In this document: one piece after another, positions 12,001 through 21,000 of the stretch
Layout: every line of letters begins with the position of its first letter
Numbering within the stretch: position 1 is the stretch's first letter
DNA from: Candidatus Anstonellales archaeon
GTDB lineage: Archaea > Micrarchaeota > Micrarchaeia > Anstonellales > J096
Direction of reading: 5' to 3'
DNA: 39,905 nt
Assembly (NCBI GenBank): GCA_038740615.1
Contig: JAVYLQ010000003.1
Span: 1 to 39,905, forward strand
Made by a program: the position numbers

Positions 12001-15000
12001 CAGAGGATTGATGAGATATTAAATAAACACCCTAATGAGTTCATTAAGATAGATCTGAAAGTTGATAAACCTATAAATATATCGAAATACAGAGATCCTA
12101 GGGTAAAAATCGATATGAGAACAGTAGCTGTAAAAGATAATAATGTGATCGATAACATGGAGATAGTTGATATAGATAAATATATGAAGAGTAATTGGAA
12201 TTATAATTATTCGTACGAAGAATTCTTAGATATTATTCAAGATCCAGATAGTGCTGTAGATAAATTGGTATTATTAAAAAAGGATGGTAAAATATGAAAG
12301 AAGTTGTTGTTCTAGCAGCAGGAATGTCTAAGAGAATGAGACCATTTGAGATGAAACCAGTATTGAAAATAGCCGGTAAAACCATCATAGATAGAATATT
12401 AGAGAGCTGGCAAGGATACAAAATCTATGTGGTGTATCGAGATGAGAGGATCAAAGAGTTAATAAGAACCCCTGGTATAACTTTTGTGGAGCAATTGGAG
12501 GATATGCCCGGAACCGCTGGAGCAATCTATTCTACTAAAGATATCATAAAAGGAAATAGTTTCTTTGTAATATCTGCAGATCACGTATTAGATCCAAGTA
12601 TTTTCAATAGGATTCAGAATTCAAAGCCAAATACAATTGCTGTGAAGAGAGTAAATAATCCTGAAAAGTACGGAGTAGTGATGTTAAAAAATGGTAAGAT
12701 TGTGGATATTGTTGAGAAACCTTCTAATCCTAAGACAAATTTGGTTAATATAGGAATATATCACTTTGATCGATCTGTATTTGATCATATTGCCAGAATA
12801 GAGATGTCTGCCAGAGGTGAGTATGAAATAACAGATATACTTATAGATAAGAGGGCTCTTGTTGTTGAGGATGAATTCTGGATGGATGTTGCCTATCCTT
12901 GGGAACTGTTAGAAGCTATGAAATATATAATTTCTAGAGAACCCGAACGAAATAATGGTGAATTGATAGGCAATAATACTATAATGGGTAAAGTTATAAT
13001 AGAGGAGGGTGCAGTAATATTGAATTCTACAATAGAAGGACCTGTTTATATAGGTAAGAATGTAAAGATAGGGCCGTATGCTTATATTAAAGGTCCTGCT
13101 AGTATAGAAGAGGATTCAGAAATAGGTATAGGAAGTACTGTAAAAAATTCTATAATAATGCAAGGTACTAAGGCAAAACATTTAAATTACATAGGAGATT
13201 CTGTAATAGGGAAACATGTGAACTTTGGTGCTGGTTCTGTAATTGCAAATCTGAGGTTTGATGAGAGAAATGTGATGCCAATGAATACTAGAAAGTTTGG
13301 GGCAGTGATAGGAGATAATACAAAAACGGGTGTGAATAGTATGATAATGCCTGGTAGTATTGTCCCTAGTAACTCTATAATATATCCAGGACAGATATAC
13401 AAGAATGATCAGTAAATTATCTTTATTTTCTCCAAATAATCCTCTACCGTGTATAGTTGAATCCTATCGTTCCTTATGTAATTGATTATTAGCATACCTC
13501 CATTTACATAATAGAGCTTAGATTGAAGATCTTGTAGATCAAAGTAATCTTTAGTTAATATTATAATTTCTTTATTGTCAGATATTTGCTCAGCTATTGA
13601 TTTAACAATCTCTTCAACCCTGTTCGGCTCGTATAAATATATTATTCCATCTCCATATTCTGTGGTAAAATTGACCCTGTTATTTTGATCTAATTCATAT
13701 ATAATCCCTCTCTCTAATCCTTGATCTCTTATTAATCTATACATAACCAATTGTTCTATTGTGTAACCACTATTCCTCTCCCATTCTGTAGGTATATAAT
13801 AGTCTTTGTATTTCTTCAGGACTCCTCTCATAACCAGAGTGTTTAGTACTATGGATAGAGAATTGGTATCTATAACAGCATTCTCCAGTCTTATATCTAT
13901 CTCCTTCAATCCTTCTGCGATCTCCGATTCCGTTAGAGGTATATTTTTCCACTTGTAATAGTTCTCAATAGTTTCAAAAGCTCTTATTATATACTCCTCA
14001 TCTAACTTGATTTGGATTGTTTCAACTGGAGGGAATACTTCTGGTATATCAATTGAATATTTGATTGGTGGTTTTGGCCTTAAGTAATTAGATACCACAA
14101 CTACTATAACAGATACTACTATAGTGAATAATCCTAGAGGATTCCCAAAGATTAATCTATCTATAGAGGTTCTTGGTAGGACTCTGAATGTTGCTTCATA
14201 AGTTTTACCTTTGATCTCTATTTTTATAGTATAATTCCCAGTCTGTAATGGTTGATTGAGAGGAATAACTATACCACTAGTATCAACAAATCTTTCCTCT
14301 CTCATTCTATCTTCCCAAGGTAAGAAGTACTTTATATTCTCTAAATATAGAGGAGTTCCATCGTAAGAATAGAAATTTATAACAACCTCTCTACCTGATC
14401 GGGATTCCTTGTACGATGCAGTTGGATATATATCTGAAGCTGTTATGATTGTTTTTGAGAATAGATTAACTCCATCAGCTTCCCATAACTCTATTTTATA
14501 TGTTCCTTCACTAAGATCTAATGATCTTCTGTATTCAACATTTACTCTTGGCTCAAAATTACCTATTTTAATAGTAGGTAACACCATGGAATTTGAAGAG
14601 TTCATCAATCTTATTTCTAAGCTACGTCTCTCATTTCTAATACCATAAGGATCGTATCTAATATCAAAGATCTGTTCTGTCTTTGGTAAGAAAATTCTCT
14701 CTTTTGGCAGAATTATCCCTCTAGAATAAGGATATAAGTTTATTGATATGAAAAATCTATTCTTAGGATCTGTAGAGTATATGATTACTGTGTTTCCTAG
14801 TCTTTCCCCAGATAATGGCAACATTACTTGTCTATCTATCAAATTAACACTAGGAATAGTTTTTCTTAGAGCTCTGCTCCAAAGGCCTGTTTCAAAATCA
14901 ACTCTAAATGCATAATACAATTGAGATAAGTTGTAACCTATAGCATTTAGTTCCTCAGGGAAAAATATGTAAAATCTCCTTCTACCCTCATCCCAGAAAT

Positions 15001-18000: not shown

Positions 18001-21000
18001 ACCTAAATCCATGATATTTAGATAATTCCCGCCCCCCAGAGATACCACCTTACCATTAGTCTGACTAACCCATTCTTTATACTCACCTGCCCAATCAATT
18101 ATAACGGCATTAGCATTCCAAACATAACTGGCTCTGAGCAAGAACGTTTTTATAGTATAAGATTTTCCAGATCCACTTATTCCAACTATTACTATATGTG
18201 GATTGGTTAGGTACTTAGGATTCCAATATACAGGAGTGTTTAGAAATTCAGTTACTCCTAGATATATCCCTTCTGTAGGATCCCCAAAAAGTAGTTCTGG
18301 AGGAGGTTGGGGAGGATACTGCAGAGGAACTCTAGCGGATATTTCATAATTATTGCTCTCTATAAATTTAAAATTCCCGCCTAATACACCCACAATTATA
18401 CACCTTGCTTAACTGCAACTTTACCAATTTCCTTGTACATCTCCTCTGTATCTGTTGGTATCACATACTCCATTTCTAGAACCTTTAATAGATCTGGACC
18501 TTTTATATCATAAACATCAACTCTCAGAGCATTAGCTAGACTACCCTTTAGATTGTCTATTTCAACTCTACTTTTCTCTATAACCTCATCTTTAGTATTT
18601 CCCTTAACAGTAACTTGGCAATAGATCAGTACATCCATAGGTCTGAATCCCTGCTCGAGTTTCTGAATCTGTTGTGTCCAATATGCTTTCTCCCTTTCCA
18701 ATCTCTCTATGGTTAGTAGATCTGGAGATGGTGACTCTCTAGCCTTTTGCAATCTCAAAGATATTTCACTTCTCTTGGTTTCCAATTCTTTCTTCTTTGA
18801 TGATATGTCTATTGCATACATTAGATAGGATATTTTGAATGGTTTTTTATAATTTATAACCAATTGTTCAAATTGTTTTTTACTATTTATCACGCTCTCT
18901 GGATTATCAGCAAATGCATCGTATATTTTAAGACCTATAAACCTACTTGCATAGTATTCATTACCAACCTGTTTTATAACCACATCCATACTTGGAGGGA
19001 TTTCGTGCTTGGTATGATTCATAACAATAACTACGTTTTTGAGTTTGGTTAATGCAGGAAATGTCTGATCTCCAAAGAATAACATGGCTGCTGTTATAGC
19101 TGTAAATACAAGTGCAATTACAAGTAAGAATGGATTGTTAAATGAGAATGCCAATAATAGACTGGCTCCAGCGATTCCAATTAGAATGTATTTCTGAGTA
19201 TTGGTATCAGTAGGCAACATTCCCCAACCACCCATAATTATTAGATTAGTATTCTTTAAAAATTTATCCAAACAATTTCATTCTATGCAATTCAGAGAAT
19301 TATGTGAGTTTCTTGAGCTTATATCAAAGAACAGATCGAGGATATATATAACAGATCAATTATCTAAGTTATACTCTAACATATCATCGGAAGAAGCGAT
19401 GATGGTTAGTTATATGCTAGTAGGCCAGATTGCTCCCTCCTATGTCTCTCTAGAGCTGGGGGTATCGAGCAATCTCATTTTACAAGCACTATCTGCAGTC
19501 ACAGGAATCTCTAAGGATGATCTAGAATTGAATCTTAAAAAAAGCGGGGATATTGGAGATTTAGCATATAATATATTAAATAGAAAGGGGAGAATTAGAT
19601 CTCTTATTAATAAGGAATTAGAAATTGCTGATGTATTCAATTCGTTGAAGAGGATCGCTCTTGAATCTAGTCAAAAAATTAAGATAGAGATCCTCATTAA
19701 TCTCCTATCCAGAACCTCTCCTATCGAAGCTAAATATTTAACTAGATTTATTGTTAACAAGACTAGAATTGCAGTAGGGATAATGACTGTATTAGATAGC
19801 ATCGCTAAGGCCAAGAATGTAGATAAAGATCATGTTAGGAGCATATATTATTTAATATCTGACATAGGTAAAACTACCCTTAAGATCTTTACAAATGATT
19901 TGAGTTATAGAGTAGAGCTATTCACTCCAATATCTCCTGCTCTAGCTGAGAGAGTAAAGGATGCTGAAGAGATATTAAGTAGATCTAATCCTGTTTTTAT
20001 CGAATATAAATACGATGGATTTAGAGCTCAGATTCATAAACGAGGTAGGGATGTTAAGATTTTCTCTAGGAGATTAGAAGATATTACCAAATATATTCCT
20101 GAGATAGTGGAGGATGTTAGGAGAATTGAAGATGATTTTATACTTGAGGGGGAGATAGTATCGTTTGTAGATTCTAAACCCCTACCTTTCCAGGAGATTA
20201 TCAAGAGAAAGAGGAAACACGATGTTATAGAGTATTCTAATAGAATACCTGTAGAGATATATGCCTTTGATATACTCTATCTCAATGGAGAGGAACTATA
20301 CAATACTACATTTATCCATAGGAGAAATCTGTTAGAGGCGTTTATAAACAAGAGTGGATTTAGCAGAATCAAATTGAGTACAGGTGAGATGGTGGATAAT
20401 AGTTCAAGAATCGAAGAGCTGTTCAATCAGGCGCTAGCATCTGGAATGGAAGGATTGATAGCTAAGAAGCCAGATAGTATATACACACCAGGTCAGAGAA
20501 ATCATAATTGGATGAAGTTGAAAAAATCTGGAGATACAATAGATTGTGTTGTTGTTGGCTATTTCTATGGTCAAGGTAGATTGAAAGATTATCCGGGCTC
20601 TCTACTAGTGTGTGTTTATGATGAGCAACTAGATGAGTATCAGACAGTAGCTAAAGTATCTTCTGGATTATCAGAAGATGAATTCATGTTACTCAAGGAA
20701 AAACTGATCACTCTGGATTCACCTTATCTTAACATAAATACCAGAATGCAACCTGATGTATGGGTGGAGCCTAATGTGATATTAGAATTAGCCTATGATA
20801 ACATAACTATCTCTCCTGTACACACATGTGCATATACAGAATTCAATGGTAAAGGATTGGCACTGCGTTTTCCTAGAGTTATCAGAATAAGAGATGATAA
20901 GGGAATAGGAGAGATAACAAGGTCGTTAGAGGTAGTAGATCTGTATAGATTACAAGGAGGAGAGATAGGAGAAGAATTGGAAGATACGGAATAGCTCTAC

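What a model noticed while it worked through the whole genome (the two positions that open the first line are those of the whole stretch)
13409..19220. Chromosomal type IV secretion-like module with a VirB4 ATPase
The operon g00181-g00177 is built around g00180, annotated only as DUF87/HerA-like, which is a VirB4-type ATPase, the signature motor of type IV secretion and conjugation. With its fixed partners g00181 (1 membrane helix, 274 aa) and g00178 (winged helix, 230 aa) it is a chromosomal gene set kept at over 50% identity in many Micrarchaeota, and in sister genera a paralogous copy of the same three genes stands directly behind a VirB2-like pilin gene and a VirB6-like membrane gene. It looks like a domesticated T4SS of the Ced/Ted kind in a DPANN symbiont, a candidate route for uptake of DNA or other macromolecules from the host.
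Evidence so far: AlphaFold2 model of g00180 from 36 homologues (pLDDT 81.4, call 129); best solved match VirB4 of Thermoanaerobacter 4ag5_A Z 36.2, rmsd 2.4 A, 346 of 374 residues, 24% id, against HerA 4d2i_B Z 27.5 and TrwB Z 23.8. Swiss-Prot best hit CedB 26%. 729 homologues; the 120 listed are 52-100% identical, carry Pfam P-loop_TraG and AAA_10, and those named by a source are mostly Micrarchaeota. G014:C1:81888-85998 and G017:C1:227821-231774 hold in one strand: an 81-85-aa two-helix protein (Pfam T4SS_pilin E 0.014 and 0.0016, TrbC/VirB2 0.097, call 130), a VirB6-like protein of 299-307 aa, a homologue of g00181 (E 3e-33, 4e-23), a VirB4 paralogue (E 8e-125, 6e-89) and a homologue of g00178 (E 3e-18, 6 [...]
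(Added by a program. Inside this text positions count along the whole contig: contig position 1 is position 1 of the stretch shown here. "Call 12" and the like, gene names such as g00115 and contig names such as C1 are that model's own, and its searches are not shown. The text may have been shortened before it was handed on; [...] marks where a part breaks off. The agent that wrote the report below was given it as the finding of a first reader that could run no searches.)

Follow-up and report, generated by a model that had tools for sequence, protein, structure and literature searches.

The report
Micrarchaeal type IV secretion-like machine core
This five-gene operon encodes the motor and membrane partners of a conjugation-type (type IV secretion-like) apparatus that nearly all Micrarchaeota, tiny symbiotic archaea, keep in their chromosomes; its channel and pilin genes lie elsewhere in this genome, and it may be how these cells exchange DNA or other large molecules with their hosts.

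Summary
Window 13409-19220 (minus strand) is a tight five-gene operon: g181 (membrane hairpin plus soluble domain), g180 (VirB4/CedB-like ATPase domain, no VirB4 N-domain), g179 (2 TM), g178 (coiled coil plus winged helix), g177 (786-aa two-TM protein).

All five genes are fixed partners, not three. The order is kept in 8 of 8 wide loci of the same order and in further families.

The "missing" parts are in this 0.54-Mb genome:
- 13 VirB6/CedA-like genes in three arrays (contigs C2, C9, C22).
- 3 VirB2-like pilin genes (C12, C21).

In 7 of 9 loci from other families, such arrays or pilin genes sit directly upstream of the orthologous operon on the same strand.

ATPase, VirB6-like and pilin-like families share one phyletic pattern (135, 135 and 133 of 151 genomes). 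A model of this genome's VirB6-like protein ranks DotA and TrwI/VirB6 first and second of 48,161 chains, at modest Z. Pilin relatives hit Pfam T4SS_pilin in 15 of 22 cases.

No relaxase or coupling protein was found, and neighbours are housekeeping genes.

Verdict: the ATPase core of a chromosomal, vertically inherited, T4SS-derived system. It is a new variant beside Ced/Ted. Cargo and direction are unknown.

The parts
18396..19220 (-). g181: 274-aa membrane protein, with an N-terminal two-helix hairpin and a ~215-aa soluble domain containing a coiled coil. It is always encoded directly upstream of the ATPase. Candidate membrane anchor of g180 (VirB3-like by position and topology).
   Evidence: ORF and sequence. 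It sits upstream of g180 in 27 of 29 short orthologous loci, 8 of 8 wide loci and 7 of 9 loci of other families, often duplicated. There is no Pfam, NCBIfam or PDB sequence match. Similarity to the VirB4 N-domain is inconclusive.
16837..18393 (-). g180: 518-aa VirB4/CedB-like P-loop ATPase domain without a VirB4 N-terminal domain, plus a ~118-aa EF-hand-like helical C-terminal domain.
   Evidence: Family hits. hhalign of the family against full-length VirB4 gives 99.2%, E 7e-20, residues 39-387 on 411-754 of 784. Invariant Walker A (G71, G74, G76, K77, S78) and Walker B (D299, E300) across 52 sequences. C-terminal residues 401-518 match PDB 2aao at 7e-05. It is a single copy in this genome.
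16433..16840 (-). g179: 135-aa protein with a cytoplasmic N-domain and two TM helices. In most orthologues the N-domain carries a four-Cys zinc-ribbon pattern and the tail is Lys/Arg-rich. Both features are lost in this genus.
   Evidence: Alignment of 38 orthologues. Fixed position between g180 and g178. No family hit above noise.
15769..16461 (-). g178: 230-aa protein with an N-domain, a coiled coil and a C-terminal winged helix. The ORF also allows a GTG start at 16470.
   Evidence: Pfam EAP30 1.1e-6, 28.9 bits against a cut-off of 26.8, found in 13 of 48 family members. The family profile matches the PDB 2xvc_A winged-helix domain (entry molecule name 'ESCRT-III') at 4e-05. The start is judged from the GGTGGTGAG ribosome-binding site before the ATG. 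It is present in both operon types.
13409..15769 (-). g177: 786-aa bitopic protein. It has a basic N-terminus, TM1 at about residues 47-72, a ~470-aa outside part, TM2 at about 542-560, and a conserved ~225-aa cytoplasmic C-domain. Candidate surface or stalk component.
   Evidence: Topology and conservation profile. Last gene of the operon in 8 of 8 wide loci of the order and 8 of 9 loci of other families. No Pfam, PDB or Atlas match. Only close relatives exist, named hypothetical.
19221..19281 (.). Short divergent intergenic region between g181 and the DNA ligase gene, with a TATA-like TTTTTAAA about 35 nt upstream of the g181 ATG. This is the inferred operon promoter.
   Evidence: Read directly from the sequence. 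It is an inference only: the promoter scan covers bacterial sigma-70 sites and is not informative here.

Best explanation
The operon is the ATPase core module of a chromosomal, vertically inherited apparatus derived from a type IV secretion / conjugation system. It is of the same kind as the archaeal Ced and Ted systems, which combine a VirB4-like ATPase, a VirB6-like membrane protein and a VirB2-like pilin.

Shown:
- g180 is an intact VirB4/CedB-like ATPase domain.
- g181, g179, g178 and g177 are its fixed partners.
- The genome also holds 13 VirB6/CedA-like polytopic proteins, including a six-gene array collinear with arrays elsewhere in the phylum, and 3 signal-peptide-bearing two-helix pilin-like proteins.
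- In other families these genes form one operon with the orthologues of g181-g177.

Inferred:
- g181 tethers a g180 oligomer, probably a hexamer, under a platform built of VirB6-like paralogues.
- ATP hydrolysis extracts pilin from the membrane and builds a conjugative-type pilus or conduit.
- g177, with its large outside domain, spans or decorates the envelope.
- g179 and g178 are cytoplasmic-face adaptors.
- The machine works at the contact with the host, or with sister cells, to move DNA or another macromolecule. With no relaxase and no coupling protein, import as in Ced/Ted is the more likely direction.

Cargo and direction are not shown.
For: ATPase:
- The best NCBIfam hits cover the whole domain: CedB 1.9e-26, CD1110 VirB4 2.8e-25, VirB4_plasma 8.2e-23. 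HerA scores 8.2e-13 over residues 255-383 only.
- hhalign of the family against full-length VirB4 gives 99.2%.
- Relatives carry separate bona fide HerA genes.

Synteny:
- The five-gene order is kept in 8 of 8 wide loci of the order.
- In 7 of 9 loci from other families, the orthologous operon is directly preceded on the same strand by VirB6-like arrays (4 loci, 4-6 genes) or pilin-like genes (3 loci).
- In G127 a pilin-like gene lies 147 bp before the array.

Own genome:
- HMMs built only from other genomes hit 3 pilin-like ORFs (2.7e-8 to 1.1e-6) and 10 VirB6-like ORFs at E below 0.01, sharing the motif LPxGxxxRxFxxTRxxG.
- The broader profile finds 13, which is 3.1% of the assembly; nine of these 13 ORFs are rows of that profile's alignment (A3), so this count is partly circular.

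Co-occurrence over 151 genomes of the phylum:
- ATPase 135, VirB6-like 135, pilin-like 133.
- The same families are empty for all three: f16 0/5, f20 0/2, f22-24 0/3.
- 132 genomes have all three, 15 have none, 4 are mixed.

Fold and family hits:
- The model of C2 gene 2 (pLDDT 78.7) ranks DotA of the Dot/Icm T4SS first (Z 10.1) and TrwI/VirB6 of R388 second (Z 8.6, 231 of 261 residues) of 48,161 chains.
- CedA is the only recurrent NCBIfam hit of the family: 4 of 46, best 5.3e-6.
- Pilin relatives hit Pfam T4SS_pilin in 15 of 22 (best 4.8e-7) and TrbC/VirB2 in 9 of 22 (best 2.8e-6).

Not a mobile element:
- Neighbours are housekeeping genes.
- No relaxase, and no coupling protein above cut-off.
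- The ATPase tree follows taxonomy.
Against: - g180 lacks the VirB4 N-domain and scores far below every curated cut-off, e.g. CedB 92.9 bits against 700.
- The family profile gives HerA chains better PDB E-values (8wiv 4.3e-19, 4d2i 7.7e-16) than VirB4 4ag5 (5.5e-13), though only over residues 250-380.
- Evidence for the VirB6 likeness is modest. Foldseek found nothing at E up to 0.001. The VIA Z of 8.6-10.1 lies in the range the tool warns is common for helical proteins. No TrbL/VirB6 family appeared among the Pfam hits of the 46 members at E up to 1.
- This genome's own pilin-like protein on C12, the only one of the three whose own hit table I saw, does not hit Pfam pilin families.
- In this genome the parts are unlinked, and the assembly is 83% complete.
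- g177, g178 and g179 have no recognised T4SS counterpart.
- There are no functional data. The RNA evidence is three short contigs in one RNA library.
Confidence: 0.68

Rival explanations
1. This is the same T4SS-derived apparatus, but it builds only a surface filament or adhesive pilus for holding on to the host. No substrate passes through it.
For: There are three pilin genes, and a VirB4-type ATPase is sufficient in principle for pilus biogenesis. No coupling protein or relaxase was found. g177 has a large outside domain. Some VirB6-like paralogues carry long Ig-like inserts: C22 2008-4809, Big_13 at 8.8e-4.
Against: The genome also has three T2SSE-type ATPases of ordinary type IV pili for adhesion. 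The zinc ribbon and basic tail of g179 orthologues and the winged helix of g178 suggest a cytoplasmic substrate or adaptor side. Ced and Ted, the closest systems, move DNA (PMC9905601, passages).
Confidence: 0.15
2. This is a HerA/FtsK-type ATPase machine unrelated to secretion: a membrane-tethered DNA pump or remodelling complex for chromosome segregation, repair or cell division. Its link to the multi-TM and two-helix families would be incidental.
For: Pfam DUF87 (HerA central domain) is the best Pfam hit. HerA chains rank above VirB4 by E-value with the family profile. g178 resembles ESCRT-II EAP30 and the 2xvc_A (entry named 'ESCRT-III') winged helices. The gene is universal and vertically inherited like a core cell-biology gene.
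Against: HerA matches cover only the C-terminal half of the domain, whereas CedB/VirB4 models cover all of it. Relatives have separate HerA genes scoring 155-171 bits on HerA models. Gene fusion into one operon with VirB6/CedA-like arrays and VirB2-like pilins in several families, plus strict co-occurrence, is hard to call incidental. The DNA ligase adjacency is confined to this genus.
Confidence: 0.12
3. This is a decayed remnant of an integrated conjugative element or plasmid transfer region.
For: VirB4-like ATPases are typical of conjugative elements. A TraX-family gene lies 8 kb away, at 27296-27973.
Against: The system is present in 135 of 151 genomes, with a tree that follows taxonomy. 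The motifs are intact. Neighbours are housekeeping genes and no integrase or relaxase was seen. TraX occurs in this genome only, 1 of 151, so it is not part of the system.
Confidence: 0.03

Closest known systems
Ced system of Sulfolobales (CedA, CedA1, CedA2, CedB; later CedD, CedE)
   Same: It is a chromosomal, domesticated T4SS with a VirB4-like ATPase, a VirB6-like membrane protein and a two-helix VirB2-like pilin, and without relaxase (PMC9905601 passages; PMC11868833 abstract and passages). CedB is g180's best NCBIfam hit, and CedA is the only recurrent hit of the VirB6-like family. Components are dispersed in the genome, ATPase and channel have paralogues, and TM helices are attached to the ATPase side.
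   Different: g180 scores 92.9 bits against the CedB cut-off of 700, so it is not an orthologue. The TM part is a separate gene (g181). There are 6 to 19 VirB6-like paralogues per genome, against one or two CedA-like genes (CedA, CedE) in the Ced descriptions read. g177, g178 and g179 have no Ced counterpart. The host is a DPANN symbiont, not a free-living crenarchaeon. Nothing here shows DNA-damage induction or DNA import.
Ted system of Thermoproteales (TedA, TedB, TedC)
   Same: The triad of VirB6-like, VirB4-like and VirB2-like proteins, with a signal peptide on the pilin (PMC9905601 passages). The type-A pilin-like proteins here also start with a signal-peptide-like segment.
   Different: No sequence similarity was detected. 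I did not see the HerA/Rad50/ParA neighbours of Ted loci conserved in the loci examined. The ligase adjacency is genus-specific.
Chromosomal T4SS of Patescibacteria (CPR)
   Same: It is a near-universal, chromosomal, mostly relaxase-free T4SS in an ultra-small, host-dependent lineage, with VirB4, VirB3, VirB6 and VirB2-like proteins. It is reported as essential for epibiotic growth in one Saccharimonadia strain (PMC12102498 abstract and passages).
   Different: That system is bacterial and nested in the MPF-FATA VirB4 clade, with full-length VirB4 and Pfam-detectable parts. Here the ATPase is domain-only, and the other parts are beyond Pfam for this genome.
Rickettsiales rvh T4SS
   Same: It is a vertically inherited T4SS in reduced genomes, scattered in several 'islets'. 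[quoted passage not shown] Some VirB6 paralogues carry huge extensions (PMC7648143, search listing only). Here there are six collinear VirB6-like paralogues conserved mainly in one motif, unlinked arrays, and paralogues of 840-945 aa.
   Different: It is a diderm bacterial system with outer-membrane core parts and a coupling protein, and it is unrelated by descent. The resemblance is convergent.
SPEARE-type giant proteins of Nanohaloarchaeota with a VirB4/TraG-like ATPase domain
   Same: A DPANN lineage in which a VirB4/TraG-like ATPase has been proposed as part of a T4SS-like device for host interaction (PMC10266531 passages).
   Different: There the ATPase is fused to a giant Ig-repeat surface protein. 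No VirB6-like or pilin-like partners were described in the passages I read. The phylum and the architecture are different.

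Membership tests
Archaeal T4SS-derived systems of the Ced/Ted kind (VirB4 + VirB6 + VirB2 triad) | VirB4-class ATPase domain with intact Walker motifs | tested here: met
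   CedB and VirB4 models are the top three NCBIfam hits over the whole domain. hhalign against full-length VirB4 gives 99.2%. Walker A and B are invariant in 52 sequences. Caveat: HerA chains get better PDB E-values over half the domain.
Archaeal T4SS-derived systems of the Ced/Ted kind (VirB4 + VirB6 + VirB2 triad) | VirB6/CedA-like polytopic membrane protein encoded in the genome | tested here: met
   There are 13 ORFs in G000. The model ranks DotA (Z 10.1, rmsd 8.0, 262 aligned) and TrwI/VirB6 (Z 8.6, rmsd 7.0, 231 aligned) first and second of 48,161 chains. NCBIfam CedA hits 4 of 46 members, best 5.3e-6. Caveat: the Z values are in the range common for helical proteins, and Foldseek and Pfam were negative.
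Archaeal T4SS-derived systems of the Ced/Ted kind (VirB4 + VirB6 + VirB2 triad) | VirB2-like two-helix pilin | tested here: met
   Three ORFs in G000 (C12:8458-8775, C21:7921-8259, C21:8249-8575) belong to a family in which 15 of 22 members hit Pfam T4SS_pilin and 9 of 22 hit TrbC/VirB2. The C12 member, the only G000 member whose own hit table was shown, does not hit Pfam pilin families. No filament has been shown.
Archaeal T4SS-derived systems of the Ced/Ted kind (VirB4 + VirB6 + VirB2 triad) | Genomic or phyletic linkage of the three parts | tested here: met
   The parts are unlinked in this genome. They are in one operon with the orthologues in 7 of 9 loci of other families. Co-occurrence is 132 genomes with all three, 15 with none and 4 mixed, of 151.
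Archaeal T4SS-derived systems of the Ced/Ted kind (VirB4 + VirB6 + VirB2 triad) | DNA transfer between cells | not testable with these tools
   No functional data exist. There are only three short contigs in one RNA library on g180/g181.
CedB (NCBIfam NF041017, equivalog) | Score at or above the curated cut-off of 700 bits, with the N-terminal part | tested here: not met
   The score is 92.9 bits, and only model positions 251-559 of 590 are matched.
Canonical VirB4 of conjugative T4SS | N-terminal VirB4 domain in the same protein | tested here: not met
   g180 residues 39-387 align to residues 411-754 of a 784-aa VirB4, with nothing before that. The CD1110 model is matched from position 392 of 752.
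Canonical VirB4 of conjugative T4SS | N-domain supplied by the upstream gene g181 (split gene) | tested here: inconclusive
   hhalign of the g181 family against a mixed 8-sequence N-domain alignment scores 37.6, probability 37.7%, E 3.4e-4. Sixty column shuffles give a mean of 13.6 and a maximum of 24.1. Subsets of the alignment give only 20-26, in other registers. No long fused form appears among the 150 best of 300 representatives.
Conjugative T4SS (mobile element) | Relaxase and type IV coupling protein | tested here: not met
   PF03432 gives no match. PF02534 gives 13.5 bits, below its cut-off of 20.1, in an assembly that is 83% complete. Only one relaxase family was searched.
HerA helicase (NCBIfam NF040819 / NF040937) | Score near the curated cut-off and full-length match | tested here: not met
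   The scores are 34.4 and 47.6 bits against cut-offs of 970 and 800, over residues 255-383 only. Relatives carry separate HerA-like genes scoring 155-171 bits.

The most novel reading that the evidence does not exclude
Micrarchaeota carry a phylum-wide, vertically inherited organelle derived from a conjugation machine. It has a domain-only VirB4 motor with a separate membrane anchor, a platform of six distinct VirB6-like subunits kept in fixed gene order, and VirB2-like pilins. The two ends of each pilin may be tied by a conserved cysteine pair, in place of the head-to-tail cyclisation of bacterial T-pilins (that comparison is recalled, not from a call). It also has three lineage-specific parts (g177, g178, g179). 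On this reading it is the conduit through which these symbionts take DNA, nucleotides or other macromolecules from their hosts. It would then be the archaeal counterpart of the T4SS that is essential for epibiosis in Patescibacteria, arisen independently in both ultra-small radiations.
Probability: 0.35. Interest if true: 0.9.

Novelty: new variant of a known kind. Interest (0 to 1): 0.75.

Why it matters
How DPANN archaea obtain DNA, nucleotides, lipids and proteins from their hosts is an open question. Most of these archaea cannot make such compounds themselves.

Here is a concrete and nearly universal candidate machine for one DPANN phylum:
- About 24 kb of a 542-kb assembly, roughly 4%, is devoted to it in this genome: the 5.8-kb operon, 16.9 kb of VirB6-like genes and about 1 kb of pilin genes.
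- It gives named targets for cryo-tomography, pilus purification, proteomics and genetics in the few cultured Micrarchaeota.
- It extends the Ced/Ted family of domesticated archaeal T4SS beyond Thermoproteota.
- It shows a striking parallel with Patescibacteria and with the Rickettsiales VirB6 expansion.

I found no paper describing it. Full-text searches were:
- VirB4 with DPANN.
- Micrarchaeota with 'type IV secretion'.
- DPANN with 'Ced system'.
- Six T4SS/DPANN terms, at least two per paper.
- Micrarchaeum, pili and HerA, at least two per paper.

Only listings and selected passages were read. Supplements were not opened.

Tried and rejected
- The complex prediction of g181 with g180 was unavailable. 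Binding is therefore inferred from gene adjacency only.
g177, g181 and the pilins were not folded here.
- Foldseek of the VirB6-like model against the PDB gave no match at E up to 0.001.
- PDB profile searches gave nothing meaningful for the pilin family, the first VirB6-like alignment, g181 or g177.
- Pilin versus the VirB6-like N-terminal hairpin by hhalign gave 26%, E 7e-4. This is too weak to claim, although it parallels what Beltran et al. report for CedA/CedA1.
- For g181, the ESM Atlas nearest named clusters were TraC-like/PrgI at 0.79-0.80, a lead only. They were not recovered by Pfam in 55 members. The Atlas had nothing for g177.
- The split-VirB4 idea for g181 has one good score and inconsistent registers. 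It is left inconclusive.
- The representative search with the g181 profile found 300 proteins, almost all stand-alone at 235-283 aa, and no fused VirB4 among the 150 listed.
- A homology search with the g177 C-domain found four close relatives only.
- The search for diverse VirB4 N-domains returned almost only 81-83% identical gut Firmicutes proteins, so the profile stayed shallow.
- The tree with HerA and VirB4 outgroups cannot say which is nearer, because three groups give no topology information. It was used only for type A versus type B.
- DNA ligase next to g181 as a functional hint was rejected. It is seen only in the five loci of this genus that reach that side (L002, L003, L004, L006 and the window's own copy L001), and in none of the other loci with flank.
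- TraX as a pilin acetylase partner was rejected: it occurs in 1 of 151 genomes.
- The roughly 520-aa neighbours of the paralogous loci were not scanned; from my reading of their sequences (recalled resemblance, no call) several look like phenylalanyl-tRNA synthetase subunits. They are not part of the system.
- The bacterial promoter/terminator scan found fewer promoter-like sites than shuffles (19 against 30.6) and is not informative for an archaeon.
- RNA cover is missing over g177-g179 in the one RNA library. This says nothing about expression.
- One genome labelled Woesearchaeota had the ATPase locus but no VirB6-like match. It was not followed up.

Full report
**What is in the window.**

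The finding's coordinates are window coordinates. The window is contig C3 of a 541,905-bp, 31-contig assembly that is 83% complete. Between 13409 and 19271, five ORFs lie head to tail on the minus strand:
- g181, 18396-19220: 274 aa from the ATG.
- g180, 16837-18393: 518 aa.
- g179, 16433-16840: 135 aa.
- g178, 15769-16461: 230 aa from the ATG that follows a GGTGGTGAG site.
- g177, 13409-15769: 786 aa.

Neighbouring genes are 2 nt apart or overlap, and each internal start has a GGTG-type ribosome-binding site. A TATA-like TTTTTAAA lies about 35 nt upstream of g181, in the 60-bp gap to the divergent DNA ligase gene. That promoter is an inference.

The rest of the window is housekeeping: thermosome, AspRS, aIF5A, glutamine synthetase, SOD, NDK, DNA ligase, FtsY and others. 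Relatives are named Candidatus Micrarchaeota, Micrarchaeia or Anstonellales. The DNA occurs in hot-spring metagenomes of several studies.

**The ATPase.**

g180 carries Pfam DUF87, P-loop_TraG and AAA_10. Its NCBIfam hits are:
- CedB, 1.9e-26, residues 40-375 on model positions 251-559 of 590.
- VirB4-like CD1110, 2.8e-25, model positions 392-726 of 752.
- VirB4_plasma, 8.2e-23.
- CedD, 4e-19.
- TraC, 1.5e-14.
- HerA, 8.2e-13, residues 255-383 only.
All are far below the curated cut-offs.

The family alignment of 52 sequences keeps Walker A and Walker B invariant. It aligns to residues 411-754 of a 784-aa VirB4 at 99.2% probability. So g180 is a VirB4-type C-terminal ATPase domain without the VirB4 N-domain. 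It is followed by a 118-aa EF-hand-like helical domain. In other orders that helical domain also exists as a separate 98-106-aa gene right after the ATPase.

Against this reading, by PDB sequence search the single protein ties HerA 8xau (8.1e-11) with VirB4 4ag5 (8.8e-11). The family profile ranks HerA chains above 4ag5 by E-value, although HerA covers only positions 250-380 and 4ag5 covers 60-330. Relatives have separate HerA-like genes that score 155-171 bits on HerA models.

**Conservation.**

An orthologue at 48-100% identity is present in 41 of 41 genomes of the order, spanning 12 families and 21 genera. A match at E up to 1e-20 is present in 135 of 151 genomes sampled across the phylum.

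Gene order:
- g181-g180-g179-g178 is complete in 27 of 29 short orthologous loci. One is cut by its contig end, and one has no g181 hit.
- All five genes are in order in 8 of 8 wide loci of the order.
- Nine orthologous loci from seven further families were examined. g180 and g178 are found in 9 of 9, g179 and g177 in 8 of 9, and g181 in 7 of 9. An ORF of matching size and topology sits at each missed place.

So g177 and g179 are fixed members. The ATPase tree follows taxonomy. The paralogous 'type B' copy forms one clade, 13 of 13, with SH-aLRT 100.

**The paralogous locus.**

Of 12 paralogue loci, 5 show this order: a small two-helix protein, a 299-359-aa five- or six-TM protein, a g181-like gene, a g180-like gene and a g178-like gene. 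Two other loci have a 1,486- or 1,689-aa protein in place of the first two genes.

**The parts thought missing are in this genome, and elsewhere they are fused to the orthologous operon.**

HMMs built only from the five pilin-like and five VirB6-like proteins of other genomes hit the following in G000:
- Three pilin-like ORFs: C12:8458-8775, C21:7921-8259 and C21:8249-8575, at 2.7e-8 to 1.1e-6.
- Tandem arrays of polytopic proteins: C2:43175-50570 (six genes), C9:13992-18388 (four genes, next to a 1,369-aa secreted protein) and C22:1-4809 (three genes).
- The polytopic proteins share the motif LPxGxxxRxFxxTRxxG followed by a conserved proline.

With the wider profile there are 13 such ORFs, 16.9 kb or 3.1% of the assembly. 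Nine of them are themselves in that profile. The arrays lie among tRNA synthetase and Rad50/SMC-like genes.

In other families the orthologous operon is directly preceded on the same strand by such genes:
- Six VirB6-like genes in G127.
- Five in G043.
- Four in G132.
- Four in G068.
- Pilin-like genes in G062 (one), G117 (three) and G069 (one).
In G127 a pilin-like gene lies 147 bp before the array.

The six-gene arrays of G127 and G069 are collinear. Diagonal phmmer scores are 99, 155, 112, 79, 110 and 105 bits; five of the six are the row maxima, and at position 4 the score against position 1 (84) is higher. The fast-evolving G000 C2 array matches best at positions 3-3 (57) and 6-6 (39).

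It is 12-19 in four further genomes.

**Co-occurrence.**

Over the same 151 genomes the three families are found in 135 (ATPase), 135 (VirB6-like) and 133 (pilin-like). The empty groups are identical: f16 0/5, f20 0/2 and f22-24 0/3. In f17 the counts are 3, 2 and 1 of 8.
- 132 genomes have all three and 15 have none.
- Four are mixed: G085, G104, G166 and G169.

Related genomes are not independent, so this amounts to a few gains or losses and is not a statistic. The counts include one unpublished genome (G061). Without it they are 134, 134 and 132 of 150.

**Is the polytopic family VirB6-like?**

A 46-sequence alignment headed by G000 C2 gene 2 gave an all-helical model with pLDDT 78.7 and pTM 0.70. 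Foldseek found nothing at E up to 0.001.

VIA-align against 48,161 representative chains ranked two T4SS proteins at the top:
- First, DotA of the Legionella Dot/Icm 'protochannel': Z 10.1, rmsd 8.0, 262 residues aligned.
- Second, TrwI/VirB6 of the R388 stalk: Z 8.6, rmsd 7.0, 231 of 261 residues, 13% identity.

The tool warns that Z under about 13 is common for helical proteins. The weight therefore lies in both top ranks being the membrane base of T4SS channels. Treating DotA as the positional analogue of VirB6 is my inference.

Further family scans:
- CedA is the only recurrent NCBIfam hit: 4 of 46 members, best 5.3e-6.
- Pfam gives no TrbL/VirB6 hit. T4SS_pilin hits 2 of 46.
- The N-terminal hairpin aligns weakly to the pilin family, at 26%.
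- Public sources name these proteins 'hypothetical', with no Pfam domain.

**The pilin-like family.**

Of 22 members, 15 hit Pfam T4SS_pilin (best 4.8e-7) and 9 hit TrbC/VirB2 (best 2.8e-6). The G000 C12 protein itself does not.

All 8 members linked to the orthologous operon type, including the three of G000, share three features:
- A signal-peptide-like start.
- One Cys about 20 residues before the YGxxQ loop.
- One Cys within the last 0-6 residues.
None of the 14 type-B members has this pair. A disulfide tying the two ends is my speculation.

**The other four proteins.**

g181 has no family or PDB sequence match.
- Its profile finds only 300 representatives among 1.84 billion proteins. Nearly all of the 150 listed are stand-alone proteins of 235-283 aa.
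- By position and topology it resembles VirB3, the membrane anchor of VirB4 (PMC12102498 passages). It also resembles the TM segments of CedB/CedD (PMC11868833 passages).
- A test for homology to the VirB4 N-domain gave one good score: 37.6, against a shuffle maximum of 24.1. Subsets gave low scores in other registers, so the test is inconclusive.

g179 orthologues carry a CxxC...CxxC pattern, two TM helices and often a Lys/Arg-rich tail. This genus has lost the cysteines and the tail.

g178 ends in a winged helix like those of ESCRT-II EAP30 and PDB 2xvc_A (entry molecule name 'ESCRT-III').

g177 has a basic N-terminus, two TM helices around a ~470-aa outside part, and its best-conserved region in the 225-aa cytoplasmic tail. 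No relative outside the lineage was found.

**Not a mobile element.**

No relaxase (PF03432) was found, and no coupling protein above cut-off. The three T2SSE ATPases elsewhere in the genome belong to ordinary type IV pilus-type systems. The TraX gene at 27296-27973 occurs in this genome only, of 151. The ligase adjacency is genus-specific.

**Expression.**

One metatranscriptome library holds three short near-identical contigs: on g180 (17277-17472), across the g181/g180 junction (18354-18499) and on g181 (18886-19085). DNA carry-over cannot be excluded, so this is a weak hint only.

**How it most likely works.**

- Shown: the anatomy, the linkage and the family relations described above.
- Inferred: the mechanism. 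g181 anchors an oligomer of g180 beneath a platform of VirB6-like paralogues. ATP hydrolysis feeds pilin from the membrane into a conjugative-type pilus or conduit. g177 contributes the outside part. g178 and g179 act on the cytoplasmic face.
- With no relaxase or coupling protein, it resembles the importing Ced/Ted systems more than a conjugative exporter.
- Cargo and direction are open.
- The rivals are a filament-only device, a HerA-like DNA machine and a mobile-element remnant. They are weighed in their own sections.

**Literature.**

- Ced/Ted as domesticated T4SS: PMC9905601, passages; no occurrence of 'DPANN' or 'Micrarchaeota' in its text.
- CedD and CedE: PMC11868833, abstract and passages.
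- Patescibacteria T4SS: PMC12102498, abstract and passages.
- Nanohaloarchaeal VirB4/TraG-domain giants: PMC10266531, passages.
- Rickettsia rvh: PMC2653234, abstract.
- Five full-text searches and one follow-up read found no description of this system in Micrarchaeota. Supplements were not read.

**Limits.**

Noticed in passing
G000 contigs C2:43175-50570, C9:13992-18388, C22:1-4809 (loci L051, L052, L053): Thirteen paralogues of one unannotated polytopic membrane family lie in three tandem arrays. They take up 3.1% of a 0.54-Mb assembly. The six-gene array has a gene order conserved with distant families.
   Followed up: yes
G000 C12:8458-8775, C21:7921-8259, C21:8249-8575 (L054, L055), and L063-L065: Pilin-like proteins of the operon-linked type all carry a conserved pair of cysteines. 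One is near the start of helix 1 and one is at the extreme C-terminus (8 of 8). The paralogous type has none (0 of 14). A disulfide tying the two ends is possible.
   Followed up: partly
window 27296-27973 (+): A TraX-family membrane protein (Pfam 9.5e-25, above cut-off). It is found in this genome only among 151 Micrarchaeota sampled, so it is a lineage-specific acquisition and not part of the conserved system.
   Followed up: yes
window 16433-16840 (-), and alignment A7: Most g179 orthologues have a four-cysteine zinc-ribbon pattern and a long Lys/Arg-rich C-terminal tail. The window's genus has lost both.
   Followed up: partly
window 16840-17193 (-); L056:11284-11583, L057:8185-8484, L059:9038-9334, L061:6735-7040, L062:8373-8669: The C-terminal ~118 aa of g180 is EF-hand-like (PDB 2aao, 7e-05). 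In other orders it is also present as a separate 98-106-aa gene directly after the ATPase.
   Followed up: partly
L053:2008-4809 (G000 C22), L056:1179-3887, L075:2811-5333: Some VirB6-like paralogues are 840-945 aa long, with a large insert. The G000 one has weak Ig-like hits (Big_13, 8.8e-4). This recalls the extended VirB6 paralogues of Rickettsiales.
   Followed up: no
L034:10246-14706 and L035:1963-7032: In two relatives the paralogous operon is preceded by a 1,486- or 1,689-aa protein instead of pilin plus VirB6-like genes. That protein has N-terminal TM segments and a very long charged, coiled-coil-like region, with no Pfam match.
   Followed up: no
L157 (G038:C119): A 784-aa VirB4 scores 1,037 bits on the Firmicutes CD1110 model and is 81-83% identical to gut Firmicutes proteins. 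This is probably a contaminant contig in that MAG, which has 6% contamination.
   Followed up: partly
window 11233-12297 (+), 19282-20994 (+); L051:1698-3950: An Mre11-like phosphoesterase and a DNA ligase flank the operon, and a Rad50/SMC-like gene lies near the C2 array. The ligase adjacency is confined to this genus, so no functional link is claimed.
   Followed up: partly
window 17277-17472, 18354-18499, 18886-19085: One metatranscriptome library (X19) holds short contigs matching these stretches at 97% identity or better (5, 1 and 1 differences over 196, 146 and 200 nt). One of them bridges the g181/g180 junction.
   Followed up: partly
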